Origin: Candidatus Zixiibacteriota bacterium
GTDB lineage: Bacteria; Zixibacteria; MSB-5A5; SM23-73-2
Assembly: GCA_030615745.1 (NCBI GenBank)
Contig: JAUWYR010000004.1
Location: 9,838-73,837, forward strand
Direction of reading: 5' to 3'
DNA: 64,000 bases
Shown here piece by piece: positions 18,397-59,726 of the stretch. The stretch's first letter is position 1. Each line of letters opens with the position of its first letter. The translations under genes and the position numbers were made by a program. Below the pieces are notes generated by a model, which searched no databases, had not been told where the DNA came from, and saw only the letters and a program-made list of their open reading frames with translations.

Positions 18397-18411
18397 TAAA
18401 ACCAAAAAAAG

Positions 18412-18474
18412 GATTAAAATTTAATTCGTCATCATTCATCAATCATTCGTCATAATTTAAGGATGAAAAATAAG
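18412..18474 (+). repeat. 63-nt direct repeat, copy 2 (overlaps authentic mutL start)
   Basis: see 16460-16522. Confidence 0.8.
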
Positions 18475-20223
18475 ATCACCATACTTCCCCAAGATTTGGT
18501 TAACAAAATCGCTGCTGGTGAGGTGGTGGAGCGTCCGGCATCTGTTGTCAAGGAGCTGGTTGAGAATTCGATCGATGCTAAGGCTAAAAGTATTAAGGTG
18601 AAAATAAGATTCGGCGGGGTGAAATTAATAGAAGTTACAGATGATGGGGAAGGGATGAATCCTGAGGATGCGGAGCTTTCTTTAAAAAGACATGCGACAA
18701 GCAAGATAAAAGAAAAAGACGACCTTTATAATATAAAAACCTTAGGTTTCAGAGGGGAAGCTCTACCATCCATTGCCTCTGTTTGCTTTTTGGAACTTTT
18801 AACAAGACAAAAAGATGCACTTTCAGGAACTTTTCTAAGCTTAGAAGCAGGTATGATAAAACAAAAAAAAGAGATCGGCGCGCCTTGTGGAACATCTGTA
18901 ACTGTAAAAGAGCTTTTTTATAATACCCCTGCAAGGCTTAAGTTTTTAAAATCCAAACTCACTGAAACCAAACATATAATCGACCTTATACAGAATTATG
19001 CCTTAGCATATCCATCTCTATTATTTGAGCTCGAATCTGACCAGAGAACTCTTCTGAATTTACCAGCTTCAATTTTAAAACAGAGAATAGCTGACATCTG
19101 GGGAAATGATCTGAAATCAAAATTGGTAGAGATGGAAAAAGAAAGGTCCGACCCTGAGATTTTCGGATTTTTAGGAAAGCCTGAACTCACAAGGTCTAAT
19201 CGTTCTGAAATACGCATTTTCGTTAACAGAAGACCTGTGGTCTCAAGGGTCTTAAATCATGCTATACAATCGGGATATAGAGACCTTCTTCCACAGGGGA
19301 AATTTCCCTTTGCTTTTGCCTTTTTCGAGATAGACCCGGAAAAGATCGATGTGAACGTTCATCCAACAAAAAGGGAGATCAAATTCTCAAATGAACATCA
19401 AATCTACAATCTGCTATATTTGAAAGTGAAAAAGTCACTTAAGAGTTTTCAGACTATCCCTTCATACAATCTTTCATCTGAAAAATTGGTATCTGAAAAG
19501 TCCGAAAAAGCTAAAGTTGGAGAAAAAATAATTGATTATAGCACAAAAATGCAAAAACCCGACTTTATTCAGGAAAAGATAATTGATAAAATCTATCCTG
19601 CTGAAAAAAGGAAAGAAATTGAGCCAGAAGAAAAAACAACTTTTCAGAAAATTTGGCAAATCTTTGATCAATATATATTGGTCCAGAACGAAGATGAGTT
19701 ATGGATTATCGACCAGCACGCAGCACATGAGAGGATACTTTATGAAGAAATAAGTGAGAATATAGGCAAAAGTGGTCTATTATCACAAAAGCTGCTTTTT
19801 CCAGAGACACTTGAGCTCTCTCCAAAAGAGTTTTTGATCTACCGGGAAAATTCCGATATTTTACTAAAGTTAGGATTTGAGGTGGAGCTTTTCGGTAAGA
19901 ACAGCCTTTTAATTTCTGGGGTTCCATCTCTTTTAAAAAACCGGTCTGAAAAAAACTTTTTCTGTGAGCTTTTATCTGAGCTGGATGAAAATTTAAAAAA
20001 AGAAGGGGACAGGATAAAATCGGTTGCTAAAGCTTTTGCCTGTAAATCAGCGATAAAATCAGGCCTGAGGCTTTCTTATGAGGAGATAAAAACACTTTAC
20101 CAGAGTCTTTTATCAACAAAAAATCCCTTCAGTTGTCCTCATGGCAGACCAACCATTATAAAAATATCACTTGAAGAGCTCGATAAAAAGTTTATGCGAA
20201 GCATTCTTCGAAAAAGAACCTGA
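18463..20223 (+). CDS. mutL: DNA mismatch repair protein MutL
   Basis: GHKL ATPase N-term (AAGEVVERPASVVKELVENSIDA), GFRGEALPSIASV, C-terminal dimerisation domain. Confidence 0.92.
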   Translation: MKNKITILPQDLVNKIAAGEVVERPASVVKELVENSIDAKAKSIKVKIRFGGVKLIEVTDDGEGMNPEDAELSLKRHATSKIKEKDDLYNIKTLGFRGEALPSIASVCFLELLTRQKDALSGTFLSLEAGMIKQKKEIGAPCGTSVTVKELFYNTPARLKFLKSKLTETKHIIDLIQNYALAYPSLLFELESDQRTLLNLPASILKQRIADIWGNDLKSKLVEMEKERSDPEIFGFLGKPELTRSNRSEIRIFVNRRPVVSRVLNHAIQSGYRDLLPQGKFPFAFAFFEIDPEKIDVNVHPTKREIKFSNEHQIYNLLYLKVKKSLKSFQTIPSYNLSSEKLVSEKSEKAKVGEKIIDYSTKMQKPDFIQEKIIDKIYPAEKRKEIEPEEKTTFQKIWQIFDQYILVQNEDELWIIDQHAAHERILYEEISENIGKSGLLSQKLLFPETLELSPKEFLIYRENSDILLKLGFEVELFGKNSLLISGVPSLLKNRSEKNFFCELLSELDENLKKEGDRIKSVAKAFACKSAIKSGLRLSYEEIKTLYQSLLSTKNPFSCPHGRPTIIKISLEELDKKFMRSILRKRT

Positions 20224-25585: not shown

Positions 25586-25780
25586 TAGAAAAGACAGGTT
25601 ATAGGTTATAGGTCATAGGTTGTAGGTGTTAGGGAAATAAATGTATGGGCGGGGTTTGTTGAGCGAAGCGAAATCCCGATTTATCGGGGTCCCCGCCTGA
25701 AAAAAACAGGTCATAGGTTATAGGTGGTAGGTGATAGGAAAATAAATGTAGGGGCGGGGTTTATCCCCGCCCGAGGAAAC
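25586..25780 (+). repeat. tandem duplication (~115 nt x2): (GGTTATAGG)n tract + REP-like GGGGCGGGG hairpin
   Basis: AGGTTATAGGTTATAGGTCATAGGTTGTAGGTGTTAGGGAAATAAATGTATGGGCGGGG vs CAGGTCATAGGTTATAGGTGGTAGGTGATAGGAAAATAAATGTAGGGGCGGGG. Confidence 0.6.
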
Positions 25781-32381: not shown

Positions 32382-33432
32382 AGAAATTCTTAAAAAAATC
32401 GAGCAAAGCAAAAAGATACTTATAACATCACACACAGATCCAGATGGAGATTCTTTCTGTTCACAGCTTGCTTTAGCTAATTTTTTGGATAGTCTTGGCA
32501 AGACCTATGAAATTTTTAACCAGGGAGAAATCTCGAGCAAATATCTTTTTTTAGATGAGAAAAGAAGAATAAAAAACAAATCTCTTGATGCATACGCAAA
32601 AACAGTTCAAAATCTTTTATCTTCTCCTAAAGATTATGATTTAGTTATATTCATTGAGTGCTCTAATCTGGATCGAGTTGGGTGGGTTAAAAATTTGATA
32701 CCAGAGGATAGTTTTTTGATAAACATAGACCATCACCGGGATAACACCTTTTTCGGCAGTATAAATTATGTTGACCCAAAAGCTTCTGCTACCGGTGAGA
32801 TGATCTATGATATTATGAAAACCTTTGGATTTTCTTTTGATAAAAAAACTGCTGAGTTAATCTATGTAGCTATAATGACCGATACAGGAAGATTCAAATA
32901 CTCCAATACCACTCCCAAATCTCTGAGGGTATGTGCTGATTTGTTAGGATATGGAGTGGACATTCGCTTTTTAACAGAAAAGATCTATTTCAATTTTTCT
33001 GAACCTGCTTTGAGGCTTTTAGGAACTACTTTGGAAAACTTAGAGCTTTTCGCAGGTAATAAAATATCTTTTTTGACCATTACTTATCCTATGCTGGAAA
33101 AGTTTAAAGTCCCACATCAGGATATTGATGGGTTTGTTGAATTTTCGTTATCTTTAGAAGATAGTAAAGTTGGAGCACTTTTTTTGGAGACAAAAAAGGG
33201 GTTCGCTCAAGTGAGCTTGAGGTCTTGTGATTTTATGGATGTTTGCCAAATAGCTAAAAGCTTTGGTGGAGGAGGTCACAAAAACGCATCAGGTTTTTTA
33301 TCTGAGGGAAAAATCGATGTGGTTAAAAGAAAAGTTTTAGATTCCCTTTTAAAAAAGCTTAAGGAGAAATCCTCAAGCTTCTCTAAAAAAAAGATGTCAT
33401 ACAAAATCGAAAATCGAAAAGAAAAAAGATGA
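32353..33432 (+). CDS. nrnA: DHH/DHHA1 phosphoesterase, bifunctional oligoribonuclease/pAp phosphatase NrnA
   Basis: HTDPDGDS, DHH (IDHH), DHHA1 GGGGHKNASG; start may be a few codons downstream (overlaps rbfA). Confidence 0.8.
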   Translation: MRKGKRLETKEILKKIEQSKKILITSHTDPDGDSFCSQLALANFLDSLGKTYEIFNQGEISSKYLFLDEKRRIKNKSLDAYAKTVQNLLSSPKDYDLVIFIECSNLDRVGWVKNLIPEDSFLINIDHHRDNTFFGSINYVDPKASATGEMIYDIMKTFGFSFDKKTAELIYVAIMTDTGRFKYSNTTPKSLRVCADLLGYGVDIRFLTEKIYFNFSEPALRLLGTTLENLELFAGNKISFLTITYPMLEKFKVPHQDIDGFVEFSLSLEDSKVGALFLETKKGFAQVSLRSCDFMDVCQIAKSFGGGGHKNASGFLSEGKIDVVKRKVLDSLLKKLKEKSSSFSKKKMSYKIENRKEKR

Positions 33433-34448
33433 CTCAGAATTTAGCTAAAAAGACAAATGCTTTTTCCTTACGTAACTCTACGGGTCTTTTTAATGGAAAA
33501 AAAATTCTTGATGGTCTTTTGATAGTAAACAAAAAAAGGGGTCCCACCTCTTTTGATGTCGTCCAAAAGTTGCGTAATATACTAAATTACAAAAGGATAG
33601 GACATACAGGGACACTCGACCCCTTTGCCTCAGGTGTATTGGTTTGTTGTCTTGGCAAGGGAACAAAAATTGTCCAGTTTATAACTTTTTGGGAAAAAGA
33701 ATATATCGCAAAGATTAAGTTAGGTGAACAGACCGATACATACGACTCTCAGGGAAAGATTGTGAAAAAATTCGAAGAATGCTTCGCAAATGAGGGATTT
33801 GTGCTCGAAGAAAATAAAATACAAAGTGTGATAGATTCTTTTAAAGGTGAAATTTGGCAAACTCCTCCTTTGTATTCAGCAATAAAATATAAGGGAAAAA
33901 AACTGTACCAATTTGCAAGAGAGGGAAAAGAGGTTAAAATTAAAAAAAGAAAAGTAAAAATTGAAAATATTGAGATTTTAAAGATAAAGCTCCCCTTTGT
34001 TTGGATAAAAGTAAGGTGTTCTAAAGGAACCTATATCAGGAGCTTAGGTTTTGATATTGGTAAAAAGTTAGGTTGCGGAGCATATCTAATTTCTCTATGT
34101 CGAACCAAGGTGGGTCCATTTGAGCTAAAAGATTCTTTCACTCTCGATGCAATAAGAAAAATAAAAGATGAGGGTAAATTGAACAAAATCGTTGTCTCTA
34201 TGGAAAAAGCACTCGAAAATCTCCCATCTCTTGTGGTCTCAGATGAGAACAAATTCAAAATAAAGCATGGTCAAGACCTTAAAGTAAAGGATATAAAATC
34301 TGTGAAAAAAGATTTCTCAAAAAAAGATAGGGTGGTTTTAAAGGATGGCTCTGGGAAAATCTTGGCAATAGGGGAAAGTCTGGTCTCCTCTGAAGAGATC
34401 TCAGATGAACAAAAAGTAATTTTTAGATACATGAGGGTAGTTGTTTGA
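33429..34448 (+). CDS. truB: tRNA pseudouridine(55) synthase TruB with PUA domain
   Basis: GHTGTLDPFASGVL catalytic-Asp motif; N-terminal ~25 aa extension, true start possibly later. Confidence 0.85.
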   Translation: MTQNLAKKTNAFSLRNSTGLFNGKKILDGLLIVNKKRGPTSFDVVQKLRNILNYKRIGHTGTLDPFASGVLVCCLGKGTKIVQFITFWEKEYIAKIKLGEQTDTYDSQGKIVKKFEECFANEGFVLEENKIQSVIDSFKGEIWQTPPLYSAIKYKGKKLYQFAREGKEVKIKKRKVKIENIEILKIKLPFVWIKVRCSKGTYIRSLGFDIGKKLGCGAYLISLCRTKVGPFELKDSFTLDAIRKIKDEGKLNKIVVSMEKALENLPSLVVSDENKFKIKHGQDLKVKDIKSVKKDFSKKDRVVLKDGSGKILAIGESLVSSEEISDEQKVIFRYMRVVV

Positions 34449-37881: not shown

Positions 37882-37917
37882 TCCGAAGGATTTCCGAAGG
37901 ACTCTTCGAGCATAGAA
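37882..37917 (+). repeat. 36-nt dispersed repeat TCCGAAGGATTTCCGAAGGACTCTTCGAGCATAGAA (intergenic copy)
   Basis: 36/36 identical copy inside murI at 48107-48142. Confidence 0.75.
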
Positions 37918-37918
37918 T

Positions 37919-39214
37919 ATGAAAACGAAATTCGATGGAAAGTATAATAAAACGATATTGCAAAATGGGATAAGGGTTGTCTCTGAGAAGATCCCCTGGG
38001 TTAGTTCTGTTTGTGTTGGTGCATGGGTTGATGTAGGGTCAAGAGATGAAAATCAGAAAGAAGGCGGATTGTCTCATTTAATTGAGCATATGCTTTTTAA
38101 GGGGACTAAAAAAAGGTCAGCAAAACAGATTGCCTTAGCCTTGGAGTCGATAGGAGGAAGTCTCAATGCTTTTACAGGGAGGGAGAACACCTGCTATTAT
38201 GCTAAGGTCTTGGATGAGAATCTTGATTCAGCAATTGACCTCTTATCTGACATTTTAAAAAACCCTCTTTTCGACCCGGTTGATTTCAAAAAGGAAAAAA
38301 GAGTGATAATAGAGGAGATCAAAGACGCTGAGGATACTCCATCTGATCTGGTCTTTGACCTTTTTATGGAGGCTTTGTGGAAGAATCAAACCTTAGGAAA
38401 ACCGATTTTAGGAACTGTGGAAAGTGTAAAAAGAATTAAAAGAACAAACCTCTTAGCATATTTTAAACGCAATTATATTCCACCTAAAATAGTTGTTTGT
38501 GCCTCAGGAAACCTAAGTCATAAAAATTTAGTCAGGATGGTGAGAAAAAAGTTTGATAAAAATTTTAGAGCTTTTTCTTTTCACCGAACTGACCCAAAGA
38601 TAGAAAAAAAGCCCATACCTTATACCCGGAAGATGGTAACTGAGAAAGGGATTGCCCAAACTCATATCTGTATTGGATTCCCTGCTTTTGATTTCAACCA
38701 TCCACAAAAATATCCAGCTTTAGTTTTGAGCAATATCTTGGGTGGAGGAATGAGTTCTCGCCTTTTCCAAACAGTTAGGGAGAAATTAGGACTTGTTTAT
38801 AATATATATAATTTTTTCGACTTCTATTTTGATTCAGGAACATTCGGTGTATATCTCGGAACCAACCAGGAGGATATCCAGATGGCAGTGAAGGCGGTTT
38901 TGAGGGAATTTTCCAAAATAAAAAATGACAGATTGCCAAAGACAGAACTTAAGAATGCTAAATATCAGCTAAAGGGTAATCTGATATTGGGAGCTGAGAG
39001 CATCTCTTATCGGATGAGTAGATTAGCTCGTCATGAGCTATATTCTCAAGATTACTGGAGTTTGAAAAAATCTATCTTGGCTATTGAAGGGGTAAAAGCA
39101 AAAGAAGTAAAAGAGGTTGCTGAAAAGATCTTAGACTCTGATAAAGTCTGCATAACCATTTTGGGTCCGGTAAAAACAGGGGTGATAAAAAAAATAGATT
39201 GGGGACTTTTTTAA
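37919..39214 (+). CDS. M16-family zinc peptidase (pitrilysin-like)
   Basis: inverted zincin HLIEHMLFKGT (HxxEH); common gene downstream of pnp. Confidence 0.85.
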   Translation: MKTKFDGKYNKTILQNGIRVVSEKIPWVSSVCVGAWVDVGSRDENQKEGGLSHLIEHMLFKGTKKRSAKQIALALESIGGSLNAFTGRENTCYYAKVLDENLDSAIDLLSDILKNPLFDPVDFKKEKRVIIEEIKDAEDTPSDLVFDLFMEALWKNQTLGKPILGTVESVKRIKRTNLLAYFKRNYIPPKIVVCASGNLSHKNLVRMVRKKFDKNFRAFSFHRTDPKIEKKPIPYTRKMVTEKGIAQTHICIGFPAFDFNHPQKYPALVLSNILGGGMSSRLFQTVREKLGLVYNIYNFFDFYFDSGTFGVYLGTNQEDIQMAVKAVLREFSKIKNDRLPKTELKNAKYQLKGNLILGAESISYRMSRLARHELYSQDYWSLKKSILAIEGVKAKEVKEVAEKILDSDKVCITILGPVKTGVIKKIDWGLF

Positions 39215-40233
39215 CTTCTATTCAGAAAATGAAACCTATTTTATTTCCCCTTTTTTTTCTTTTAATTTTAAGTTTATCACTTTTTTTTATCTGGAGAATT
39301 GTGTATGCGCGTATGCGTCAAGAGACCGAAGGTCAAGAGACATCAAGAGAAAGGTTTAAATCCCAACAATTTTCATCCGAAAATGCGTATGCATCAAGAG
39401 ATAAAAATAATATTTTACTCTATCATAAAATAGAAGATAAGTGGGAGTGGGGAATCACCCGACAAAGGATAAGCCAATTTGAAAAGCAGATGAAATTTCT
39501 TTATAAGCAGGGTTATAAATTGATGAGGTTGGACCTGTCCGGTCAGGAAAAAAATTTCACTAATGACTTTGATTCTGAGAACAAAAAGATTTTTTTGACC
39601 TTTGATGATGGTTATGAATCTGTCTATACTCATGCTTTTCCTATTCTTGAGAAGTTTGGTTTTTCTGCAACTGTTTTTCTTATCACAGGATGGGTAGGAA
39701 AAAAGAATTTGTGGGATATAAACTGGGGGAAAAAGTTTAATCACCTCTCTTGGTCACAGATAGAAGAGCTTAAAAAATTCGGATTTAATTTTGGTTCTCA
39801 TACTGTGAATCATCCTGATCTAACTAAACTTAATGGAAAAGAAGTTGAATATGAGCTTTTGAATTCAAAAAATATGATAGAAGATAGGTTAGGGGAGAGG
39901 GTTGAGTTTTTATCCTATCCATTTGGAAAATATAATAGATCAGTTCAAAGAATTGCTGAAGATATTGGTTATAAAAACGCGTTCACTATTTGCTCTGGAC
40001 CAAAAAAATTTTCCGACCCATATGCTTTAGGACGATTAGGGATCTATCTTTTTGATTCGAGCTTGACTTTACATATAAAATTGAACCAAACACCAATTTT
40101 TTGGATAGAGGATATGAAAGGAAGGATAATTAACCAATTTGCCAATGGGACAACTCTTTTCAAGTCAAAACCAAAATACGATTTTTGCTTAAAAAGTGAA
40201 AAGCCTAAAAGTATCTTCGTAAAAAAGGTATGA
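39199..40233 (+). CDS. polysaccharide deacetylase (NodB homology) with N-terminal TM anchor
   Basis: TFDDGY, HTVNHPDL motifs; aa ~30-70 (ARMRQETEGQETSRERF...NAYASRDKN) encoded by CAAGAGA-family repeats 39301-39402; start may be ATG 39229. Confidence 0.75.
   Translation: MGTFLTSIQKMKPILFPLFFLLILSLSLFFIWRIVYARMRQETEGQETSRERFKSQQFSSENAYASRDKNNILLYHKIEDKWEWGITRQRISQFEKQMKFLYKQGYKLMRLDLSGQEKNFTNDFDSENKKIFLTFDDGYESVYTHAFPILEKFGFSATVFLITGWVGKKNLWDINWGKKFNHLSWSQIEELKKFGFNFGSHTVNHPDLTKLNGKEVEYELLNSKNMIEDRLGERVEFLSYPFGKYNRSVQRIAEDIGYKNAFTICSGPKKFSDPYALGRLGIYLFDSSLTLHIKLNQTPIFWIEDMKGRIINQFANGTTLFKSKPKYDFCLKSEKPKSIFVKKV
39301..39402 (+). repeat. cluster of CAAGAGA-family short repeats inside deacetylase ORF
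   Basis: GTGTATGCGCGTATGCGTCAAGAGACCGAAGGTCAAGAGACATCAAGAGA ... TGCGTATGCATCAAGAGAT; matches 397-418, 46009-46041(rc), 46199-46218. Confidence 0.6.
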
Positions 40234-42014: not shown

Positions 42015-44468
42015 ATGCAAATGTATCCTTTTAAAGAAATAGAGGAGAGGTGGCAGAAAAGATGGGAAAAGCAAAAGCTCTACCTTACCCCTGATCCTCC
42101 CAAGAAGAAATATTACATGCTGGTTATGTTCGCCTATACCTCTGGTGATATTCACATAGGTCATTTCAGAAATTACATAATAGGTGATGTGATTGCCAGA
42201 TACAAGACGATGAATGGATTCGATGTTCTGCATCCGTTTGGATGGGACGCTTTTGGTCTTCCAGCAGAGGAGGCGGCAATAAAACACGGTGTTAATCCAG
42301 AGGAGTGGGCTTTAAAAAATATAGAGGTCTCAAGAAAGACTATACAGAAAAGCGGGGTATCTTTTGATTGGGAAAGGGAGGTCATAACCTGCCTTCCTGA
42401 TTACTACAAATGGACTCAATGGATGTTTCTGAGACTTTATGAGAATAACTTAGCTTATCGAGGTAAATCATTTGTGAATTGGTGTCCACATTGCAATACT
42501 GTTTTAGCTAATGAGCAGGTTGTCGGGAGGAGGTGCTGGAGATGTGAACATGAGGTTACCAAAAAGGAGCTTTCGCAATGGTTTTTTAAAATCACCGCCT
42601 ACATCCAGAGATTACTTTCTGATCTTTTTAAGCTTAAAGACTGGCCCGAACCAATAAAAATAATGCAAAGAAACTGGATCGGTAAATCAGAGGGGACAGA
42701 GATAGATTTCACAATAGAAGGAACTGGCGAGAAAATCTCTGTTTTCACCACACGATCTGATACTATATATGGAGTTACATTTATGGCAATCTCTCCGGAA
42801 AATCCCCTTTTGCAAAAATTAAATATTGAGCCCAAATACAAAAAAGATGTTGATGATTATATAAGAAAATCTGCTTTTAGAAATGAGGCTGAAAGAGTTT
42901 CTGCAGCAGAAAAAGATGGTGTTTTCACTGGAAGATTTGCTATAAACCCACTCTCTGGTGAAAAGATACAGTTATGGGTAGCGGATTACGTGGTAGGCAC
43001 CTATGGAACTGGAATCGTGATGGGTGTTCCAGGACATGACCAGAGAGATTTCGAGTTCTGTAAAAAGTATAAAATCCCCATAAAAGTAGTTATACAGCCA
43101 AAGGGTCTTACTTTTTCTCCCAATAAGATGAAAAAGGCATACGTTGAACCGGGAGTGATGGTCAACTCAGACAGATTCAATGGACTTTGGTCTGAAAAGG
43201 GAATTGAGAAGATAACAGAATATGTAGAATTAAAAAAACTTGGGAGGAAAAAAATAAATTATAAGCTGAGAGACTGGCTTATCTCTCGTCAGAGATTTTG
43301 GGGAGCGCCAATTCCTATGATTCACTGCGAAAAATGCGGGATGGTTCCTGTGCCTGAAAAAGATTTGCCTGTTCTTTTGCCTAAAAGTAACATAGACTTT
43401 TTTCCAAAAGGCAGGTCTCCTTTAGCTGATGTGGATGAGTTTATCAAGACTACCTGCCCTAAGTGTAAAGGTAAAGCTAAAAGAGACCCTGACACGATGG
43501 ATACGTTTGTCTGTTCCTCCTGGTATCTTTTCAGATACACTGATCCTAAAAATAAAAACCAGCCTTTTGCAAAAAAGAAAGTTTCCCGGTGGTTGCCAGT
43601 GGATAAATACATCGGAGGTGCAGAACATGCAACAGGTCATCTTTTGTATTTCAGATTCTTTACCAAGTTTTTACACGACATCGGGTATTTGTCAGTCGAT
43701 GAGCCAGCAATTGAGCTTTTTAACCATGGGATGGTTTTGGATTCAAAAGGTGAGGTGATGTCAAAATCGAAGGGAAATGCAGTTTCTCCGATCGATTTGA
43801 TGAACCAGAAAGGTGTAGATGTTTCAAGAATTGCGGTCTATTTTGCTGCCCCTTCTGAGAAGGAGATATTGTGGACAGGCGAAGGGATTACAGGTGCATC
43901 GAGATTTCTGAATAAAATTTATAATTTAGCACAAAAAGTTAAGCCAAAAGACTTAAATTATAATATCAAGTTTAATGACTTAACTGATACTGAAAAAACA
44001 ACTTACAGAAAATTACATCAGACGATAAAAAAGGTTAATGAAGACATAGAGACTCTACAATTTAACACTGCTATTGCTTCTATGATGGAGTTTTTGAACC
44101 TGTTTAGCTCAATATCTTCTGATTCAAGGATTTATACCTATTGTCTTAAGAATTTAATCCAGCTTTTAGCTCCATTTGCTCCACATTTAGCAGAGGAGTT
44201 ATGGGAGAAATTGGGTTTTAAACAGAGTGTTTTCAAATCCAAATGGCCCGCTTATGATAAAGACGCAGTGATCGAAGAATTAGTTACTATCGTAGTTCAG
44301 GTAAATGGCAAGCTCAGGACGTCTTTTGAGGTTCCATTGAATACTGATAAGGAGAAGATCGAGAGAATAGCTTTGGAGAATGAGAAAATTAAGAAATTTA
44401 CTAAGGATAAAAGGGTTTTAAAGACTATTTTTATTCCTAATAAATTGATAAATCTGGTGGTGGGGTAG
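42015..44468 (+). CDS. leuS: leucyl-tRNA synthetase
   Basis: HIGH (GDIHIGHFRNY), KMSKS (VMSKSKGN), CP1 editing and zinc-binding CxxC pairs. Confidence 0.92.
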   Translation: MQMYPFKEIEERWQKRWEKQKLYLTPDPPKKKYYMLVMFAYTSGDIHIGHFRNYIIGDVIARYKTMNGFDVLHPFGWDAFGLPAEEAAIKHGVNPEEWALKNIEVSRKTIQKSGVSFDWEREVITCLPDYYKWTQWMFLRLYENNLAYRGKSFVNWCPHCNTVLANEQVVGRRCWRCEHEVTKKELSQWFFKITAYIQRLLSDLFKLKDWPEPIKIMQRNWIGKSEGTEIDFTIEGTGEKISVFTTRSDTIYGVTFMAISPENPLLQKLNIEPKYKKDVDDYIRKSAFRNEAERVSAAEKDGVFTGRFAINPLSGEKIQLWVADYVVGTYGTGIVMGVPGHDQRDFEFCKKYKIPIKVVIQPKGLTFSPNKMKKAYVEPGVMVNSDRFNGLWSEKGIEKITEYVELKKLGRKKINYKLRDWLISRQRFWGAPIPMIHCEKCGMVPVPEKDLPVLLPKSNIDFFPKGRSPLADVDEFIKTTCPKCKGKAKRDPDTMDTFVCSSWYLFRYTDPKNKNQPFAKKKVSRWLPVDKYIGGAEHATGHLLYFRFFTKFLHDIGYLSVDEPAIELFNHGMVLDSKGEVMSKSKGNAVSPIDLMNQKGVDVSRIAVYFAAPSEKEILWTGEGITGASRFLNKIYNLAQKVKPKDLNYNIKFNDLTDTEKTTYRKLHQTIKKVNEDIETLQFNTAIASMMEFLNLFSSISSDSRIYTYCLKNLIQLLAPFAPHLAEELWEKLGFKQSVFKSKWPAYDKDAVIEELVTIVVQVNGKLRTSFEVPLNTDKEKIERIALENEKIKKFTKDKRVLKTIFIPNKLINLVVG

Positions 44469-44821
44469 AGGCAAAACCAGGGATTTTTGATGATTGATGA
44501 TTAATGAAGATTTTTAAATTGCGAGGTGAGTTTACATAATGTTTATTATAAGACCTTTTATGGTTCGCTTTATCTTGAGTTCTTAAAAGATAAAGTTCGC
44601 ATTCCTTCTTTTTTAGAGGGAAACTTTTGTTCGCTTTTTTTAGCCTGGTCAAATGGAAGAAATTTTAAAACCCAGTTCCCTGACGTTAGGAGGATTCCAT
44701 TATGAAGTCATTATCTGTAAAAGGAGCCGGCAGAGCTTCCCAGAAATCCCAGCCCACGTATGTCAAACTCTTAATGGAATGCGAACCTTTCAGGTTTGCC
44801 TTTCCTTATAGTTTTTCTTAA

Positions 44822-44890
44822 AAGTAAAGCTGAAGCTTTACACTCCATATCTCACCTTATAGATTTGGTTTTTTCAGAAATCTCTTATTT
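44822..44890 (+). repeat. repeat GTAAAGCTGAAGCTTTACACTCCA...TTTTTTCAGAAAT (copy 1)
   Basis: related copy at 49111-49185 (GTAAAGCTAAAGCTTTACACTCCA...TTTTTCTGAAAAG). Confidence 0.5.
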
Positions 44891-44911
44891 TAAGATTATG
44901 TGGGTTATTGA

Positions 44912-45148
44912 CTTAAACTAAAACTTTAAGTCATAATAATATATTATCTGGAGTGCAACAACTTGTTGTTGCAACTCTATGCGAAAACAAGTTTTCGCAC
45001 TACCTAAGAGAAAAGCAGAGCAAGGGTGCTCTGCGCTATGAGGTTTTGTGTTTTTTGAACAGACAGGAATGTCTGTTCTACCTTCGGTTATTTTTTAACA
45101 TCGGGCATGTTCGAAGAATGCTTCGCAAAGCCCGACGCTACATTTAAA
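44912..45148 (+). repeat. nested repeat, long form (CTTAAACTAAAACTTTAAGTC ... CCCGACGCTACATTTAAA) with ~180-nt highly structured interior
   Basis: termini identical to short form 45233-45289; interior carries perfect hairpins TGCAACAACTTGTTGTTGCA, GCGAAAACAAGTTTTCGC, GCAGAGCAAGGGTGCTCTGC, GAACAGACAGGAATGTCTGTTC. Confidence 0.55.
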
Positions 45149-45232
45149 AAAATTTATCAAACACAAAAATTGGGATTACTAACTATCTTTGCAAACGTTT
45201 TTTATTTTTCAGCAAACCTCTCCCCTATCAGA

Positions 45233-45289
45233 CCTAAACTAAAACTTTAAGTCGAACGTCGGGTATGAAACCCGACGCTACGCTTAAAT
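45233..45289 (+). repeat. nested repeat, short form (CCTAAACTAAAACTTTAAGTC-GAACGTCGGGTATGAAA-CCCGACGCTACGCTTAAAT)
   Basis: see 44912-45148. Confidence 0.55.
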
Positions 45290-45545
45290 TTTCTGTGCTG
45301 GTCAAGTCCCCTGACTCGACCAGAAAATCTCTGTTCCGCGGGGATGTTATCTCTGGCCAGCCAGGCATCCCCGCAAATAAATTCTGGGTGGATGATAACA
45401 TCCGCCCAGAACAAAGAAATATATGTACGTAATCTTTTGTCCCTAAATCCTTTTTTTAGGAACAATTATTATTAATTAGTATATAAGTATATGATATGCT
45501 CAAATTTCCTTGCAACATGATTTTCATTTTGATATATTAAAAAAG

Positions 45546-46016
45546 ATGGAAAAAAAAGAAGAGATAAAAATAGTAGCGACTAACAGGAAGGCTCATCACG
45601 ACTATACTATAGTTGAGACCTATGAGGCTGGGTTGGAACTAAAGGGGAGCGAGGTTAAATCTTTAAGGGAAGGTAAAGTCTCTTTGAGGGACTCCTTTGC
45701 CAGGATAGTTGATGAACAGCTACATTTATTAAATATGCACATAAGCTCCTATGAGAAGGCATCTAAGTTTGGACATGATCCAAAAAGAACAAAAAAATTG
45801 TTGATGCATAAAAGGGAAATAAAAAGACTTATGGGCAAAACTTTTGAAAAGGGATACACCTTAGTCCCTTTAAAAATCTACTTTAAAGGAAGTTTTGCCA
45901 AGGTGGAATTAGCCCTAGTCACTGGTAAAAGAAAATATGATAAAAGGAGAGCCCTGGCTGAAAAAGAGGCTAAAAGAAAAATAGAAAGAGCCTTTAAAGA
46001 GAGACAAATCTCTTGA
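45546..46016 (+). CDS. smpB: SsrA-binding protein
   Basis: IVATNRKAHHDYTIVETYEAGLELKGSEVKSLR...; start placed at MEKKEE (ORF-track start 45510 extends into non-coding repeat). Confidence 0.88.
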   Translation: MEKKEEIKIVATNRKAHHDYTIVETYEAGLELKGSEVKSLREGKVSLRDSFARIVDEQLHLLNMHISSYEKASKFGHDPKRTKKLLMHKREIKRLMGKTFEKGYTLVPLKIYFKGSFAKVELALVTGKRKYDKRRALAEKEAKRKIERAFKERQIS

Positions 46017-46041
46017 TGTCTCTTGACCTTCGGCATACGCA
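46009..46041 (-). repeat. CAAGAGA-family repeat (rc orientation) spanning smpB stop / amidase upstream
   Basis: TCTCTTGATGTCTCTTGACCTTCGGCATACGCA = rc of TGCGTATGCCGAAGGTCAAGAGACATCAAGAGA (cf. 39316-39350). Confidence 0.55.
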
Positions 46042-46047
46042 AATAAG

Positions 46048-47514
46048 ATGGCAAAAAAAGTAGCTTTTTTAACAATCTTTTTAGTGTCGTCGTTTGCCTT
46101 TACATCTTTATCCCAAAGCATTTATGAACTTTCAAACTTACCTAAAGTAAAAATAGATAAAGTTGATTATGTTTGTTTAGATGAAGTTGTCCGGGTTTTG
46201 CGTATGCATCAAGAGATAGGTGGTAAGATTTATCAGGATGAAAAAGAGGGAAAAGCGATATGGTATTATAAGGGTCAAAGATTGGAATTTACACCCTTTT
46301 CCCCTTACGTTTTAATTGATAACTCAATCTATGATCTTTTGTTCGAGGTAAAATTAAAGAAAGGGGAAATCTTTGTTCCTCAAAAAAATTTCTTTTCCCT
46401 TTTAAAAGAGTTAAAAAAGCAAAGCAAAAAATTCAAGGAAAACTTATCTCTTGATGCATACGCATTTTCAAAACCCTCTTATCTTGAGTATAACATCACA
46501 GATATTTTTGCATCTAAAAAGCTCAATGGAATTTTAATCGAGATATTTATTTCCTATCCCATAAATTATGAGGTTTTTAAAAGTGAGAATAACTGTATCA
46601 ACATTTTCTTCTATGAGGGGAAAATCGACACCGGTTATTTTAATTTCAAAGAAATTCCAAGTATAATAAAAAAGATAACGGCTTATCAATACGGAAACTC
46701 AGTCCAGGTCTCCTTATGGACGAAAAAGTCCTTTCATACACTATCCCACAATCTGGAATCTTTTCCTTTTCGTATTCAAATCTCCTTGGAGGATACAACC
46801 GAGATTGCTAAAAGTGCACAAGATGATCTAATCGACGTGGTGGTCATTGACCCAGGTCATGGTGGGGTCGATTTTGGATTTTTTGGTCAAAGGAGTCTTT
46901 GGGAAAAAGATATCACTTTAGATATAGCCTTAAGGTTAAAAAAGCTTTTAGAGAAAGAAACTGATTTAAAAGTTGTCCTTACAAGAGATTATGATGTTTT
47001 TATTCCTCTTAAAAAAAGAGCAAGAATAGCAAATAAAGAGGGTGGAGACCTGTTAATAAGCATTCACTGTGAATTTTCTGAGGACGAAAATGAATCTGGA
47101 TTTGAAATCTTCTTTTTCGGAGAGTCTCAAAAAGATAAAGAAACGACTTTAACTTTTAAAGAGGATTTAGAAAAAACCAATGAAATTTTTTCTGATTCGA
47201 TTTTTATTCTCCCTGACACCACCCAATACCTGTTCTTTGAACAGTCAAAAAATTTAGCTTTTATAGTTTGTGAGGAGATGGAAAAAAAACTTAAAATGTT
47301 TTCAAAGGGAATTTTTCAAGAAAAGTTTTTAGTTTTGAAAAAAGCCTATATGCTTGGAATTTTAGTTAATTGTGGATTTATCTCCAATCCAGATGAGGAA
47401 AAGCTTTTGGCACAAAGTCCTTTTAGAGAAAAAATTGCAGAGGCTCTGTTTTTTGGAATAATGAGGTTTAAAATTGAGGGTGAGCACGAAAAAAGCTATG
47501 AAGCTAAAAGATGA
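46048..47514 (+). CDS. N-acetylmuramoyl-L-alanine amidase (AmiC-like: AMIN domain + amidase_3)
   Basis: signal peptide, amidase_3 core VVIDPGHGG...DLLISIHCE; contains two in-frame CAAGAGA-family repeats (46199-46218, 46446-46464). Confidence 0.8.
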   Translation: MAKKVAFLTIFLVSSFAFTSLSQSIYELSNLPKVKIDKVDYVCLDEVVRVLRMHQEIGGKIYQDEKEGKAIWYYKGQRLEFTPFSPYVLIDNSIYDLLFEVKLKKGEIFVPQKNFFSLLKELKKQSKKFKENLSLDAYAFSKPSYLEYNITDIFASKKLNGILIEIFISYPINYEVFKSENNCINIFFYEGKIDTGYFNFKEIPSIIKKITAYQYGNSVQVSLWTKKSFHTLSHNLESFPFRIQISLEDTTEIAKSAQDDLIDVVVIDPGHGGVDFGFFGQRSLWEKDITLDIALRLKKLLEKETDLKVVLTRDYDVFIPLKKRARIANKEGGDLLISIHCEFSEDENESGFEIFFFGESQKDKETTLTFKEDLEKTNEIFSDSIFILPDTTQYLFFEQSKNLAFIVCEEMEKKLKMFSKGIFQEKFLVLKKAYMLGILVNCGFISNPDEEKLLAQSPFREKIAEALFFGIMRFKIEGEHEKSYEAKR

Positions 47515-48349
47515 AAAAAAAATAGGGATATTCGACTCAGGTGTGGGTGGTTTAACTGTTGCTCGCGAGATTCTTAAAATCCTCCCCTTTGAACAGATAA
47601 TCTATTTTGGCGATACTGCGCGTTGCCCATATGGTCCGAGATCGAAAAAAATTGTCAGGGAATTTTCATTGCAGAATGTGAATTTTTTATTATCTCAAAA
47701 TGTTAAATTCATCGTAGTGGCTTGTAATACTTCCTCAGCTTTGGCTTTGGATTTTTTAAAAAAAAGGTTTGAAATTCCCATGATGGGAGTTATCGAGCCA
47801 GGAGCAAAAGGAGCAGTCGAGGCAACTAAAAATAAAAAGGTAGGGGTGATCGGAACTTTAGGAACAATTTCATCTGGTTCTTATGTTAAAGCTATTCATA
47901 AAATGGACAAAAAGATTATAATTTATCCTCTGTCCTGCCCTCTTTTTGTCAGCTTGACTGAGGAGGGTTTTATTAACAAAAAAGCGACCTATCTTATCGC
48001 TGAGGAATACTTGAAGCCTTTGAAGAAAAAAAGAATCGATACTTTGATCTTAGGATGCACCCACTATCCTTTGTTAAAAGGGGTTATAAGAAATGCGATG
48101 AAAAAATCCGAAGGATTTCCGAAGGACTCTTCGAGCATAGAAAATGTAACGTTGATCGACTCAGCTGAAAAGACAGCTTTGGATGTCAAAAGGTTTTTAT
48201 TAGAAAAAGACCTTTTAAGAAAATCTGATAAAGAACCTTCTCATAAATTTTTTGTCTCAGACCAGCCGGATAAATTCAAAAAACTCGGACAAAGATTTTT
48301 AGGGAAAAAGATAAAAAGGGTTGAATTAGTGGACATAAACAAATACTAA
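47498..48349 (+). CDS. murI: glutamate racemase
   Basis: IGIFDSGVGGLTV, CNTSS and GCTHYPLL cysteine motifs; carries 36-nt repeat insertion (KSEGFPKDSSSIE) at 48107-48142. Confidence 0.88.
   Translation: MKLKDEKKIGIFDSGVGGLTVAREILKILPFEQIIYFGDTARCPYGPRSKKIVREFSLQNVNFLLSQNVKFIVVACNTSSALALDFLKKRFEIPMMGVIEPGAKGAVEATKNKKVGVIGTLGTISSGSYVKAIHKMDKKIIIYPLSCPLFVSLTEEGFINKKATYLIAEEYLKPLKKKRIDTLILGCTHYPLLKGVIRNAMKKSEGFPKDSSSIENVTLIDSAEKTALDVKRFLLEKDLLRKSDKEPSHKFFVSDQPDKFKKLGQRFLGKKIKRVELVDINKY
48107..48142 (+). repeat. 36-nt dispersed repeat, in-frame inside murI
   Basis: identical to 37882-37917. Confidence 0.75.
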
Positions 48350-49110: not shown

Positions 49111-49185
49111 GTAAAGCTAAAGCTTTACACTCCAAAAAGATAGACTGAGTTTTTTGTTTTTCTGAAAAGATAAAACTTTCTTGAC
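49111..49185 (+). repeat. repeat GTAAAGCTAAAGCTTTACACTCCA...TTTTTCTGAAAAG (copy 2)
   Basis: see 44822-44890. Confidence 0.5.
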
Positions 49186-49615: not shown

Positions 49616-49693
49616 GGTGGGTGTAGCTCAGTTGGTTAGAGCACCAGGTTGTGGCCCTGGTGGTCGCGGGTTCAAGTCCCGTCATCCACCCCA
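49616..49693 (+). tRNA. tRNA-His (anticodon GTG) with encoded G-1 and CCA
   Basis: G-1 + acceptor GTGGGTG/CATCCAC, anticodon arm CCAGG-TTGTGGC-CCTGG, T-arm GCGGG-TTCAAGT-CCCGT, discriminator C, CCA. Confidence 0.85.
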
Positions 49694-50420
49694 TTTTTCA
49701 GTTTTGTTCCCTTCGGCTAATAAGTCGAAGGGCTTTCTGTATGTGGGATAAAGAGTTCCGTCAATTACTTGACAGTTCGAAAGTAGAAAATTGAGAAGTT
49801 TCCTTTTCTCTGGGGCTTCTTGCTTCTGATATAGAAAATACGCTTTGCTGGCGAGTTCTAAGATTTTGATTCCCTCATCGAAGTAGCTTTTATTGGCATT
49901 TTGATGACATTGAATTTCGGATAGTATTCTTGACTGCTCCTCTATCCATTGTTCTGATTTTCTGTTCCAGAATTCCTCTGTGATTTTACCTTCGAGTTTG
50001 TCCTCATAGGCTTGGTCAAGCTTTTGTTGAAGTTTTTTATGCCGTAAGGTGAGCTTGCCTATCATCTCATCGTGATATGCTTTCTCGTCAACGTGACTTG
50101 CTTTTAAGGCTTCTTTGATCCATTCCAGTTTTGCATCATCGATTACTATTTTTTTAACCACCTGACCAAGTTTGTCCTCAAGTAACTCTTCCCGGATATA
50201 TGCTTTCTCACATTTTCCCTTGGAACCGGTGCAGTGATAGTAGATGTATCTATTCTTCTGTATTTCTGCGGTGATGGAACAACCGCAGCGTCCACAGGTC
50301 AAAAGTCCAACAAAGGCGAAATTCCTCTTTTTCGGCTTGGGCTTATTGTGGTTTTTGAATACTTCCTGAACTTTTTCGAAAAGCTTTTTAGTTATGATCG
50401 GTGGATGCTTGCCTGAATAT
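49682..50420 (-). pseudogene. large serine recombinase, C-terminal fragment only (recombinase domain end + zinc beta-ribbon + coiled-coil); N-terminal catalytic domain missing
   Basis: zinc ribbon CGRCGCSITAEIQKNRYIYYHCTGSKGKCEK; open frame continues upstream to 50420 (...KPKPKKRNFAFVGLLTCGRCG) without ATG or resolvase catalytic domain; 3' end overlaps tRNA-His by 12 nt. Confidence 0.7.
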
Positions 50421-59548: not shown

Positions 59549-59726
59549 TTAATCGAAATATAGGGTAATCGAAAAATGAAGTCAAATGAAAAGAAGATTC
59601 AGAACACCTCTTGTGGATGATAACATCCACAAGGAGCAGAAAATAACTTTTAACTTTAACTTTGAGAATAAAAAAACAATCCTTTATGCTTATTCAGTGA
59701 AGGATTAAGTTACAACTAATTTTGTA

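What the first reader, a model, noticed from the sequence alone, without database searches (positions are those of the whole stretch)
44470..45545. ~1 kb gene-free, highly structured region between leuS and smpB containing a nested repeat (237-nt form with an insert vs 57-nt solo form)
No credible ORF spans 44470-45545. Copy A (44912-45148) and copy B (45233-45289) share both termini (CTAAACTAAAACTTTAAGTC ... CCCGACGCTACRYTTAAAT). Copy A additionally contains ~180 nt packed with perfect hairpins (TGCAACAA-CTTG-TTGTTGCA, GCGAAAACAAGTTTTCGC, GCAGAGCA-AGGG-TGCTCTGC, GAACAGACAGGAATGTCTGTTC, CGGGC...GCCCG). This pattern looks like a structured ncRNA, or a MITE carrying a passenger, inserted into a target duplicated at 45233. 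A third element (44822-44890) recurs at 49111-49185 upstream of the tRNA cluster. smpB is adjacent, but I could not find tmRNA hallmarks (a tRNA-like 3' end or tag ORF).
Basis: seen in the sequence. Interest (0 to 1): 0.5.

Follow-up and report, generated by a model that had tools for sequence, protein, structure and literature searches.

The report
Nest of REP-type palindromic repeats
The 1-kb gap between leuS and smpB is not a new RNA gene or a hidden tmRNA but a pile-up of small GTAG-tagged palindromic repeats of the REP kind, inserted next to and into one another, which is a known and fairly ordinary kind of bacterial repeat here seen in a Zixibacteria genome.

Summary
Copy A (44910-45148) equals copy B (45231-45289) plus a 163-nt insertion and an 18-nt insertion in the hairpin loop. 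All the listed hairpins exist, and Rfam and ARAGORN find no known RNA or tmRNA.

The interpretation needs changing. Four hairpins in the gap (H2, H4, and the A and B terminal hairpins) are followed by CTAC, which is GTAG on the other strand and is the hallmark of REP elements. A fifth, H3, carries the variant CTAT. The tag is strongly enriched next to perfect hairpins: 7 of 29 in the window and 12 of 56 in relatives, against 1-2% for random placement.

The modules are independent, dispersed repeats:
- The B hairpin recurs at 18248 with compensatory changes.
- A's loop insert recurs at 33771 and 20193.
- H1 and H2 occur at other loci in relatives.
- H4 occurs in more than 120 metagenome contigs (GC 32-71%), often as inverted doublets. 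In at least three contigs it flanks a RAYT-like Y1 transposase gene.

In the closest relative (SmpB 89% identical) the same modules are present but shuffled, which does not fit one conserved RNA.

smpB has its own conserved promoter just upstream. No RAYT gene lies in the 64 kb. The AT-rich left-terminus dyad remains unexplained.

Verdict: a REP cluster, a new member of a known kind, of low to moderate interest.

The parts
42015..44468 (+). leuS, the upstream gene. The palindrome cluster lies in its 3' flank.
   Evidence: 817-aa ORF. The best named homologues are Zixibacteria LeuS at 71% identity.
44824..44847 (+). It is a dispersed palindromic module with an ACTCC tail.
   Evidence: 23 of 24 nt identical to 49111-49134, upstream of the tRNA-Pro/Arg/His promoter. 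A degenerate orthologue sits upstream of the tRNA promoter in L082.
44910..44932 (+). Left-terminus dyad of copy A (LT_A): GACTTAAA-CTAAAAC-TTTAAGTC. It overlaps a sigma-70-like match, TTGACT-18-CATAAT, at 44908-44937.
   Evidence: An orthologous dyad is at L082:5535-5556, where the promoter-like hexamers are not conserved.
44950..45003 (+). H1/H2 module: GGAGT, then hairpin GCAACAA-CTTG-TTGTTGC, then hairpin GCGAAAAC-AA-GTTTTCGC, then A-CTAC. The two hairpins are also complementary to each other.
   Evidence: (I4). In L082 the same module follows the other LT copy (5795-5841). H1 occurs alone in another intergenic site of L088, and H2 inside a GGAGT...ACTCC bracket in another intergenic site of L087.
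45015..45039 (+). H3: GCAGAGCA-AGGG-TGCTCTGC followed by GCTAT, a degenerate CTAC tag.
   Evidence: A related hairpin, GTAG-TG-GCCGAGC-TTG-CTCGGC-TTTTCT, lies in inverted orientation in the smpB-upstream gaps of L090 and L092.
45057..45082 (+). H4: GAACAGACA-GGAA-TGTCTGTTC followed by TACC, which reads CTACC. It belongs to a RAYT-associated REP family that is widespread in metagenomes.
   Evidence: Also found in L082 (twice), L085, L090 (inverted) and, decayed, in L214. More than 120 metagenome contigs carry it. RAYT-like Y1_Tnp genes are flanked by it in L169, L184 and L195.
45099..45148 (+). REP hairpin of copy A: CATCGGGC...GCCCGACG, then CTAC, then ATTTAAA. Its loop is interrupted by an 18-nt mini-palindrome at 45110-45127.
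   Evidence: Alignment to copy B. The pair U-A in B is C-G in A, a compensatory change. The inserted piece TTCGAAGAATGCTTCGCAAA recurs at 33771-33790 (+) and 20193-20212 (-), and none of 100 shuffles gave 3 matches.
45231..45253 (+). Left-terminus dyad of copy B (LT_B): GACCTAAA-CTAAAAC-TTTAAGTC.
   Evidence: The orthologue at L082:5755-5777 keeps the dyad through a C>T / G>A double change. L214 has a single copy at 6543-6566.
45257..45288 (+). REP hairpin of copy B, the solo form: CGTCGGGT-ATGAA-ACCCGACG, then CTAC, then GCTTAAA.
   Evidence: A dispersed copy at 18248-18271, GTCGGATATGAAATCTGACGCTAC, shows one double (compensatory) and one G-T change. It lies in the last 13 codons of the KAP-NTPase ORF.
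45299..45412 (+). Three further untagged hairpins: CTGGTC...GACCAG, GCGGGGATG...CATCCCCGC and TTCTGGGTGGATG-ATAA-CATCCGCCCAGAA.
   Evidence: The core GTGGATGATAACATCC recurs in an intergenic hairpin at 59610-59633.
45510..45538 (+). smpB's own promoter: TTGCAA, 17 nt, TATATT with an upstream TG. It lies directly upstream of the smpB ATG at 45546.
   Evidence: The pattern CTTGCNA-N17-(G)ATATATT is conserved in front of smpB in L082, L214, L085, L087, L088, L090 and L092.
45546..46016 (+). smpB, the downstream gene.
   Evidence: PF01668 in all homologues.

Best explanation
The leuS-smpB spacer of this Zixibacteria genome is a nest of REP-type (repetitive extragenic palindrome) elements.

Anatomy. 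The basic unit is copy B: an AT-rich dyad (LT) followed directly by an 8-bp-stem hairpin that ends in CTAC, which reads GTAG plus hairpin on the other strand. Copy A is an older duplicate of that unit. It has been split open by other small palindromic modules: the H1/H2 double hairpin, H3, and H4 with its CTAC tag. An 18-nt mini-palindrome has also landed in the loop of its REP hairpin.

How it works, at the DNA level. Such hairpins form in single-stranded DNA. Together with the GTAG tag they are the substrate of RAYT/TnpA-REP enzymes (HUH Y1 transposases), which cut at nearby CT or CA and rejoin strands. This spreads and stacks the elements. Recombination between the repeated pieces then reshuffles them.

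How it works, at the RNA level. If the stack is transcribed as the leuS 3' tail, it would form very stable stem-loops. These can stop or stabilise the transcript and insulate smpB, which starts from its own promoter.

Shown here: the anatomy, the enrichment of the tag, the dispersal of the modules, their shuffling between relatives, the association of the H4 family with RAYT-like genes elsewhere, and the absence of a known RNA.

Inferred: that a RAYT acts, or once acted, in this genome, and any role at the RNA level.
For: (1) Nesting. A equals B plus a 163-nt and an 18-nt insertion.

(2) Tag. CTAC follows H2, H4 and the A and B hairpins, and H3 has CTAT. A CTAC/GTAG tag flanks 7 of 29 GC-containing perfect hairpins in the window and 12 of 56 in eight relatives' loci. 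Random placement gives 1.3% and 2.0% (binomial P = 8e-8 and 9e-10). It is the most enriched flanking 4-mer apart from homopolymer runs. The other tagged hairpins lie between genes, at 4545, 25752, 40657, 49042 and 59726.

(3) Dispersal. The B hairpin recurs at 18248 with compensatory changes. A's loop insert recurs at 33771 and 20193. H1 is in L088 and H2 in L087, both at unrelated intergenic sites. H4 is in more than 120 metagenome contigs with unrelated flanks and GC of 32-71%. Of 134 H4 hits, 62 have an inverted partner within 200 nt. Only 1 of the 120 contigs has smpB nearby.

(4) RAYT link. Y1_Tnp (PF01797) genes are flanked by H4-type hairpins in inverted orientation in L169, L184 and L195.

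(5) Shuffling. In L082 (SmpB 89% identical) both LT copies are orthologous, but H1/H2 follow LT_B instead of LT_A, H4 is duplicated and the REP hairpins have decayed. L214 keeps one LT and a decayed H4.

(6) The same genome has another GTAG-tagged palindrome in short-loop and long-loop forms (4541-4562 and 25748-25772 against 2388-2440 and 25646-25697). It also has a split form of a third repeat at 46009.

(7) Literature. GTAG-tagged REPs show short-loop and long self-complementary-loop variants, form clusters and sometimes lie inside genes (PMC3733652). GTAG is a determinant of TnpA-REP binding and cleavage (PMC8266576).

(8) No Rfam or tmRNA match.
Against: No RAYT gene is in the 64-kb window or in any fetched locus of the same clade (tblastn).

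Copy numbers seen in this genome are low: three for the B-type hairpin and one for H4 in 64 kb. Classical REPs number more than 100 per genome, and the whole genome could not be scanned.

All units here point the same way (head-to-tail), which the literature describes as the rare arrangement. They do not alternate as in E. coli BIMEs.

H1 and the hairpins at 45299-45412 carry no GTAG tag.

The LT dyad is specific to this locus, is conserved in three genomes, and is not explained by the REP model.

A sigma-70-like promoter overlaps LT_A, and the 44824 hairpin that precedes it also precedes the tRNA operon promoter. Transcription of copy A as a separate RNA is therefore not excluded.
Confidence: 0.75

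Rival explanations
1. Copy A is the gene of a novel structured small RNA. It would be transcribed from the TTGACT-18-CATAAT promoter that overlaps LT_A, be built from several stable hairpins, and perhaps be functionally linked to smpB.
For: The fold z-score is -5.65. The promoter-like site matches 10 of 12 positions. The 44824 hairpin upstream of it is shared with the tRNA operon's upstream region. Every clade member keeps a hairpin-rich gap upstream of smpB. Some stem changes are compensatory.
Against: The promoter hexamers are not conserved at either LT copy in L082. The order and content of the modules differ between genomes whose SmpB is 89% identical. Each module occurs alone at unrelated loci. 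No Rfam match appears even at E <= 10. Low fold energy is expected for any stack of perfect palindromes. Compensatory changes within single hairpins are also typical of REP families.
Confidence: 0.12
2. The region is a MITE, or a palindrome-associated element derived from IS200/IS605, that carries passenger DNA and inserted into a hairpin target of which copy B is the empty site.
For: A equals B plus inserts at sharp boundaries. The inserts consist of hairpins of the kind Y1 transposases handle.
Against: The 163-nt insert has no terminal inverted repeats and no target-site duplication. It is not repeated as a unit anywhere in the window, in the 217 loci or in viral contigs. Its parts are separately dispersed and separately rearranged in L082, so it is a composite of several events and not one element.
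Confidence: 0.05
3. The region is a divergent or two-piece tmRNA (ssrA) gene next to smpB.
For: ssrA often lies next to smpB, directly downstream of it in many of the GTDB relatives scanned. A tag-like frame beginning GCAAAC (Ala-Asn) ends at the TAA in LT_B. The B hairpin has a 7-nt loop like a T-arm.
Against: ARAGORN, which also detects permuted tmRNA, finds nothing in the window or in 15 loci of the clade. Rfam has no tmRNA-clan match even at E <= 10. There is no GGGG 5' end, no UUCGA T-loop and no acceptor/CCA context. The 'T-arm' hairpin is a dispersed repeat that also sits at 18248.
Confidence: 0.01
4. The region is a leader, attenuator or operator that regulates smpB, or it is decayed remains of a gene.
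For: A gap upstream of smpB is conserved across the clade. Alternative pairings are possible at 45328-45417 (I2 and I19). In L214 a 298-aa ORF occupies the gap.
Against: The conserved smpB promoter lies between the hairpins and the ATG and leaves a leader of only about 8 nt. Apart from that promoter, no sequence is conserved across the more distant gaps. The L214 protein and the 39-aa ORF have no tblastn match in the window gap or in any other locus.
Confidence: 0.05

Closest known systems
GTAG-tagged REP superfamily (Di Nocera et al. 2013, PMC3733652) and its RAYT/TnpA-REP enzymes (Nunvar 2010, PMC2817692; Corneloup 2021, PMC8266576)
   Same: The elements are 20-40-nt palindromes with 7-9-bp stems and short loops. 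An unpaired GTAG tag sits at one foot, with GTGG and ATAG variants. Stems show alternative complementary residues. Short-loop and long self-complementary-loop variants exist. The elements sit outside genes or at gene ends and form clusters. For H4, RAYT-like genes are flanked by the repeat.
   Different: Many different stem sequences each occur at low visible copy number, rather than one or a few abundant families. The units are stacked head-to-tail. No RAYT gene is seen in the 64 kb. The host is Zixibacteria, which I did not see among the phyla named in the parts of that survey I read.
E. coli BIMEs (bacterial interspersed mosaic elements)
   Same: They are composite intergenic arrays of REPs with other short motifs between them, located between genes that are transcribed in the same direction.
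   Different: BIMEs alternate REP orientation at regular spacing and have defined linker motifs. Here all units share one orientation, spacing is irregular and the units belong to different families.
REPINs (Bertels and Rainey 2011)
   Same: In the metagenome contigs, H4-type hairpins occur as inverted doublets in 46% of hits, as REPINs do.
   Different: The window's cluster contains no inverted doublet.
MITEs and palindrome-associated elements of IS200/IS605
   Same: They are small non-autonomous elements made of hairpins and mobilised in trans by Y1 transposases, and they can nest.
   Different: No terminal inverted repeats, no target duplication and no repeated whole unit are present.
tmRNA (ssrA)
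   Same: Only the genomic neighbourhood (next to smpB) and its length of a few hundred nt are shared.
   Different: There is no tRNA-like domain, no recognisable tag frame context and no model match.

Membership tests
REP (GTAG-tagged superfamily) | A short (about 20-40 nt) sequence that forms a stem-loop. | tested here: met
   Perfect stems of 8-9 bp with loops of 4-5 nt for H2, H3, H4 and the B hairpin. A's hairpin has the same stem with an interrupted loop.
REP (GTAG-tagged superfamily) | An unpaired GTAG tetranucleotide at one foot of the palindrome. | tested here: met
   CTAC lies directly 3' on the + strand for H2, H4, and the A and B hairpins, and for the copy at 18248. H3 has CTAT and H1 has none. 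Enrichment is 7 of 29 against 1.3% expected (P = 8e-8) in the window and 12 of 56 (P = 9e-10) in relatives.
REP (GTAG-tagged superfamily) | Many dispersed copies in the genome (classically more than 100). | tested here: inconclusive
   Only 64 kb of the genome is visible. It holds 3 copies of the B-type hairpin, 3 of the 20-mer and 1 of H4. H4 is in more than 120 metagenome contigs.
REP (GTAG-tagged superfamily) | Location outside genes, mostly downstream of ORFs. | tested here: met
   The cluster follows leuS. The other tagged hairpins lie between ORFs, at 4545, 25752, 40657, 49042 and 59726. One overlaps the last 13 codons of an ORF at 18248.
REP (GTAG-tagged superfamily) | A cognate RAYT (Y1 HUH transposase) gene flanked by the repeats. 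| tested here: inconclusive
   Met for the H4 family in other organisms (L169, L184, L195; PF01797, E about 1e-9). No RAYT is in the window or in clade loci L082-L092. The rest of the genome was not seen.
BIME | REPs in alternating orientation at regular spacing. | tested here: not met
   All tagged units in 44980-45281 have CTAC on the + strand, and spacing is irregular.
MITE | Terminal inverted repeats, a target-site duplication and multiple copies of the whole unit. | tested here: not met
   The 163-nt insert has no such ends. No second copy of the unit exists in the window, the loci or viral contigs.
tmRNA | A tRNA-like acceptor and T-arm domain plus a tag reading frame, detectable by ARAGORN or the Rfam tmRNA models. 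| tested here: not met
   No match (E <= 10), nor in the clade loci.
Any Rfam family | A score at or above the family's gathering threshold. | tested here: not met
   Only tRNAs pass in the window. The best score in the region is 21 bits against a threshold of 100.

The most novel reading that the evidence does not exclude
The AT-rich LT dyad, GA(C/T)TTAAA-N7-TTTAA(G/A)T, may be a fixed landing site that repeatedly captures REP-type hairpin modules directly on its 3' side. This would be loosely comparable to an attachment site that collects hairpin cassettes. The resulting stack might be transcribed from the overlapping TTGACT/CATAAT promoter as a small RNA built from domesticated REPs next to smpB. 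The evidence does not exclude this. The dyad is conserved in three genomes with a compensatory change, and in all five copies different modules begin 0-20 nt 3' of it. It is found nowhere else in the sequence examined.
Probability: 0.1. Interest if true: 0.6.

Novelty: new member of a known kind. Interest (0 to 1): 0.3.

Why it matters
This result removes a candidate 'novel ncRNA or hidden tmRNA' from the list and files it under a known class of repeat.

It shows that GTAG-tagged REP-type palindromes occur in Zixibacteria, a phylum without cultured members. It also shows that they can nest into one another both in loops and side by side. Such stacks can mimic a complex structured RNA in a fold-based screen, which is a useful caution for ncRNA discovery pipelines.

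The side observation may interest people who work on REP/RAYT evolution. One REP hairpin, GTAG-GACAGACA-TTCC-TGTCTGTC, is nearly identical in more than 120 contigs with GC content from 32 to 71%, and it sometimes flanks RAYT-like genes. That pattern suggests either very strong constraint from the enzyme or horizontal spread.

Tried and rejected
- tmRNA. I looked for a T-arm, an acceptor stem and a tag frame by eye, and ran ARAGORN and Rfam on the window and on 15 clade loci. Nothing was found.
- Rfam at E <= 10 over 44300-45700. Only chance-level matches appeared.
- Orthologous alignment for covariation. The one genome-contig scan, with SmpB as query, returned only distant relatives at 49-61% identity. 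Closer relatives were reached through the search for homologous proteins and the look-up of encoding contigs. Their gaps cannot be aligned as a whole, so no covariance model was built.
- Close strains. The contigs break inside the gap. L213 ends 91 nt after leuS, L084 starts 88 nt before smpB, and L081 starts at 45111. Strain-level presence or absence of the inserts could therefore not be read.
- DGR template/variable-region idea for the matches inside genes. Rejected, because the differences are not adenine-specific and no reverse transcriptase is present.
- CRISPR-like idea for the four tandem H4 copies in L105. Rejected, because the 34-nt sequences between the copies are near-identical to one another, so this is a plain tandem repeat with a 58-nt period.
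- H4 as an smpB-specific element. Rejected, because only 1 of 120 H4 contigs has smpB nearby.
- CGTC tag. The B hairpin starts with CGTC, but there it is paired inside the stem and is not an unpaired tag, so it was not counted.
- Pseudogene debris. tblastn of the L214 gap protein and of the 39-aa ORF found nothing.
- Viral origin. LT and the B hairpin are absent from IMG/VR, and H4 is in only 2 viral contigs.
Full report
**1. The observation**

The spacer between leuS (42015-44468) and smpB (ATG at 45546) is 1,077 nt long. The two copies share both ends.
- The left terminus GAC(T/C)TAAACTAAAACTTTAAGTC lies at 44910-44932 and 45231-45253.
- The right terminus CCCGACGCTAC(A/G)(T/C)TTAAA lies at 45131-45148 and 45271-45288.
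- Neither recurs in the 64 kb with up to three mismatches. None of 100 shuffles gave two matches.

A MAFFT alignment shows that copy A is copy B plus a 163-nt insertion after TTTAAGTC and an 18-nt insertion in the hairpin loop.

The 'third element' is real, but only as a 24-nt hairpin plus ACTCCA. It is shared, 23 of 24, with 49111-49134.

Rfam (gathering thresholds on the whole window, E <= 10 on the region) and ARAGORN find only four tRNAs and no tmRNA. An independent Logan assembly reproduces 45111-46016 exactly.

**2. Anatomy**

Copy B consists of two parts.
- The first is an AT-rich dyad, which I call LT: GACCTAAA-CTAAAAC-TTTAAGTC.
- The second follows three bases later. It is the hairpin CGTCGGGT-ATGAA-ACCCGACG, then CTAC, then GCTTAAA.

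Copy A has the same frame. Its closing pair changed from U-A to C-G, a compensatory change, and its loop is interrupted by TTCGAAGAATGCTTCGCA.

Between LT and that hairpin, copy A carries four modules:
- H1/H2: GGAGT, then two hairpins, then A-CTAC.
- H3: a hairpin followed by GCTAT.
- H4: GAACAGACA-GGAA-TGTCTGTTC followed by TACC.

On the + strand, H2, H4 and both terminal hairpins are therefore followed by CTAC. On the other strand this reads GTAG plus palindrome.

**3. The tag is not chance**

I listed all perfect hairpins with a stem of at least 7 bp, at least 3 G/C in the stem, and a loop of 3-8 nt.
- A CTAC/GTAG tag flanks 7 of 29 in the window and 12 of 56 in eight loci of related genomes.
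- Random placement of intervals of the same lengths gives 1.3% and 2.0% (binomial P = 8e-8 and 9e-10).
- CTAC is the most enriched flanking 4-mer apart from homopolymer runs.
- The tagged hairpins outside the spacer lie between ORFs (4545, 25752, 40657, 49042, 59726) or at the 3' end of an ORF (18248).

A GTAG foot on a short palindrome is the defining mark of the largest REP superfamily (PMC3733652). It is also a determinant of binding and cleavage by TnpA-REP/RAYT enzymes (PMC8266576).

**4. The modules are independent, dispersed repeats**

- The B hairpin recurs at 18248-18271 as GTCGGATATGAAATCTGACGCTAC. It differs by one double (G-C to A-T) and one G-T change, and it lies in the last 13 codons of a KAP-NTPase ORF.
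- The insert in A's loop recurs exactly at 33771-33790, inside a 339-aa ORF (33429-34448) that I judged truB-like by eye without a family search. It recurs at 19 of 20 positions, reverse-complemented, at 20193-20212 at the 3' end of mutL. None of 100 shuffles gave three matches.
- H1 occurs alone, preceded by GTAG, at an unrelated intergenic site in L088. H2 occurs inside a GGAGT...ACTCC bracket at another intergenic site in L087.
- H3 has inverted, GTAG-tagged relatives in L090 and L092.

I scanned the metagenome collection with the H4 pattern ACAGACARGAATGYCTGTYCYACC.
- These contigs have GC content from 32 to 71% and unrelated flanks.
- 62 of the 134 hits have an inverted family member within 200 nt.
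- Only one contig has smpB nearby.
- In L169, L184 and L195 a gene of about 195 aa with HUH and Y motifs (PF01797 Y1_Tnp, E about 1e-9) is flanked by H4-type hairpins in inverted orientation. This is the canonical RAYT arrangement.

**5. Relatives**

LeuS places the organism in the candidate phylum Zixibacteria. The best named hits are 71% identical.

SmpB homologues at 70-89% identity were traced to their contigs. Most of these genomes have a 600-900-nt gene-free, hairpin-rich gap upstream of smpB, whatever the upstream gene is; L087 and L214 have only about 250 nt. In all of them the pattern CTTGCNA-N17-(G)ATATATT lies directly in front of smpB. In the window this is 45510-45538. smpB therefore has its own promoter, and the hairpins are not its leader.

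- In L082 (SmpB 89%, same leuS-smpB order) both LT copies sit at orthologous places. However, H1/H2 follow the second LT and not the first, H4 is present twice, and the REP hairpins have decayed.
- L214 (LeuS 84%) has one LT, a decayed H4 and an unrelated 298-aa ORF in the gap.
- L085 and L090 keep H4, inverted in L090, among other hairpins.

Conserved modules in a changing order fit repeats. They do not fit one folded RNA.

**6. The same nesting occurs elsewhere in the window**

A GTAG-GGGCGGGG...CCCCGCC palindrome exists in two forms.
- The short-loop form is at 4541-4562 and 25748-25772.
- The long-loop form, with a 35-nt insert containing its own hairpin, is at 2388-2440 and 25646-25697.

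Another repeat, ATCTCTTGATGCATACGCA, occurs four times and also in a split form at 46009-46043. Short-loop and long self-complementary-loop variants within one REP family are described in the literature.

**7. Explanation**

The spacer is a nest of REP-type palindromes. Copy B is the basic unit. Copy A is a duplicate that was opened by later insertions of other palindromic modules.

The mechanism I consider most likely is the one established for REPs.
- Hairpins form in single-stranded DNA.
- They are recognised together with the GTAG foot by a RAYT, which cuts at nearby CT or CA and joins strands.
- Recombination between the repeated pieces adds further rearrangement.

The anatomy, the tag statistics, the dispersal, the shuffling and the RAYT link of H4 in other organisms are shown. 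RAYT action in this genome is inferred, since no RAYT is in the 64 kb or in the clade loci. An RNA-level role as a stabiliser or terminator of the leuS transcript is also inferred.

**8. Rivals**

- A separate small-RNA gene starting at the TTGACT-18-CATAAT site is not excluded. It is disfavoured because the hexamers are not conserved in L082 and the architecture is not conserved.
- A single MITE with a passenger is disfavoured. There are no inverted termini, no target duplication and no second copy of the unit.
- tmRNA is rejected.
- A leader of smpB is rejected because of the position of the conserved promoter.

**9. What stays unexplained**

The LT dyad is specific to this locus. It is conserved in three genomes, with a compensatory change, and it is always followed within 0-20 nt by palindromic modules of differing identity. 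It could be an insertion hotspot or a protein-binding site.

**10. Verdict**

The region is a new member of a known kind: a cluster of GTAG-tagged REPs. Interest is low to moderate.

Noticed in passing
L093-L212 (metagenome contigs), e.g. L169:1-1158, L184:1-1276, L195:1-1200, L105:37-234: The hairpin (GTAG or GTGG)-GACAGACA-TTCY-TGTCTGTC is nearly identical in more than 120 contigs with GC content from 32 to 71%. It often forms inverted doublets and sometimes flanks RAYT-like Y1_Tnp genes. L105 has four tandem copies with a 58-nt period. This looks like a cross-phylum REP family. I found no paper that contains the sequence.
   Followed up: partly
window 2388-2440, 4541-4562, 25646-25697, 25748-25772: A second GTAG-tagged palindrome, GGGGCGGGG...CCCCGCC, occurs in a short-loop form and in a long-loop form with a 35-nt insert that has its own inner hairpin. 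Repeated upstream sequence accompanies it (2322-2397 against 4476-4551; 25603-25657 against 25708-25762).
   Followed up: partly
window 32580-32598, 39386-39404, 46201-46219, 46446-46464, 46009-46043: The 19-mer ATCTCTTGATGCATACGCA occurs four times in both orientations. Two copies lie inside the amidase-like ORF 46048-47514. A split form with a 14-nt insert spans the smpB stop codon. Related TCAAGAGA motifs recur at 8363, 8977, 10562, 37844 and 39320-39350.
   Followed up: no
window 33771-33790 and 20193-20212: The 20-mer TTCGAAGAATGCTTCGCAAA, which is the insert in copy A's loop, lies inside a 339-aa ORF that I judged truB-like by eye only. It also lies, reverse-complemented, in the last ten codons of mutL. 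Palindromic repeats inside repair genes are mentioned in the REP literature.
   Followed up: partly
window 16452-16531 and 18404-18483; 37882-37924 and 48107-48149: An 80-nt repeat (92.5% identical) lies in front of two neighbouring ORFs, the KAP-NTPase with pentapeptide repeats and mutL. A separate 43-nt repeat is 95% identical between its two copies.
   Followed up: no
window 49617-50302: A 206-aa minus-strand ORF with only a recombinase zinc-ribbon domain abuts the 3' end of tRNA-His. This may be the remnant of an element that integrated at the tRNA.
   Followed up: no
window 16089-18287: A gene for a 23S-rRNA-intervening-sequence protein lies next to a KAP-family P-loop NTPase with pentapeptide repeats. 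The ORF of the latter ends inside a REP-type hairpin.
   Followed up: no
L082:5304-6000, L085:1-892, L088:5381-6000, L090:1401-2172, L092:5270-6084, L214:6448-6709: Most SmpB relatives of this clade keep a hairpin-filled gap of 600-900 nt directly upstream of a conserved smpB promoter, whatever the upstream gene or its orientation; in L087 and L214 the gap is only about 250 nt. In L087-L092 the hairpin GGGAGCCC-ACAA-GGGGCTCCC followed by CTACAAAATT sits right before the -35 box, and it also occurs elsewhere (L087:2311).
   Followed up: partly
L214:5551-6447: A 298-aa ORF with no Pfam hit on record lies on the minus strand inside the leuS-smpB gap of a relative whose LeuS is 84% identical. It is absent from the window and from L082.
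   Followed up: partly
L213:3824-3914, L084:1-88, L081:1: Independent short-read assemblies of the same or a near-identical strain all break inside this spacer. One of them breaks exactly at the dispersed 20-mer, as expected for repeat-caused assembly breaks.
   Followed up: no
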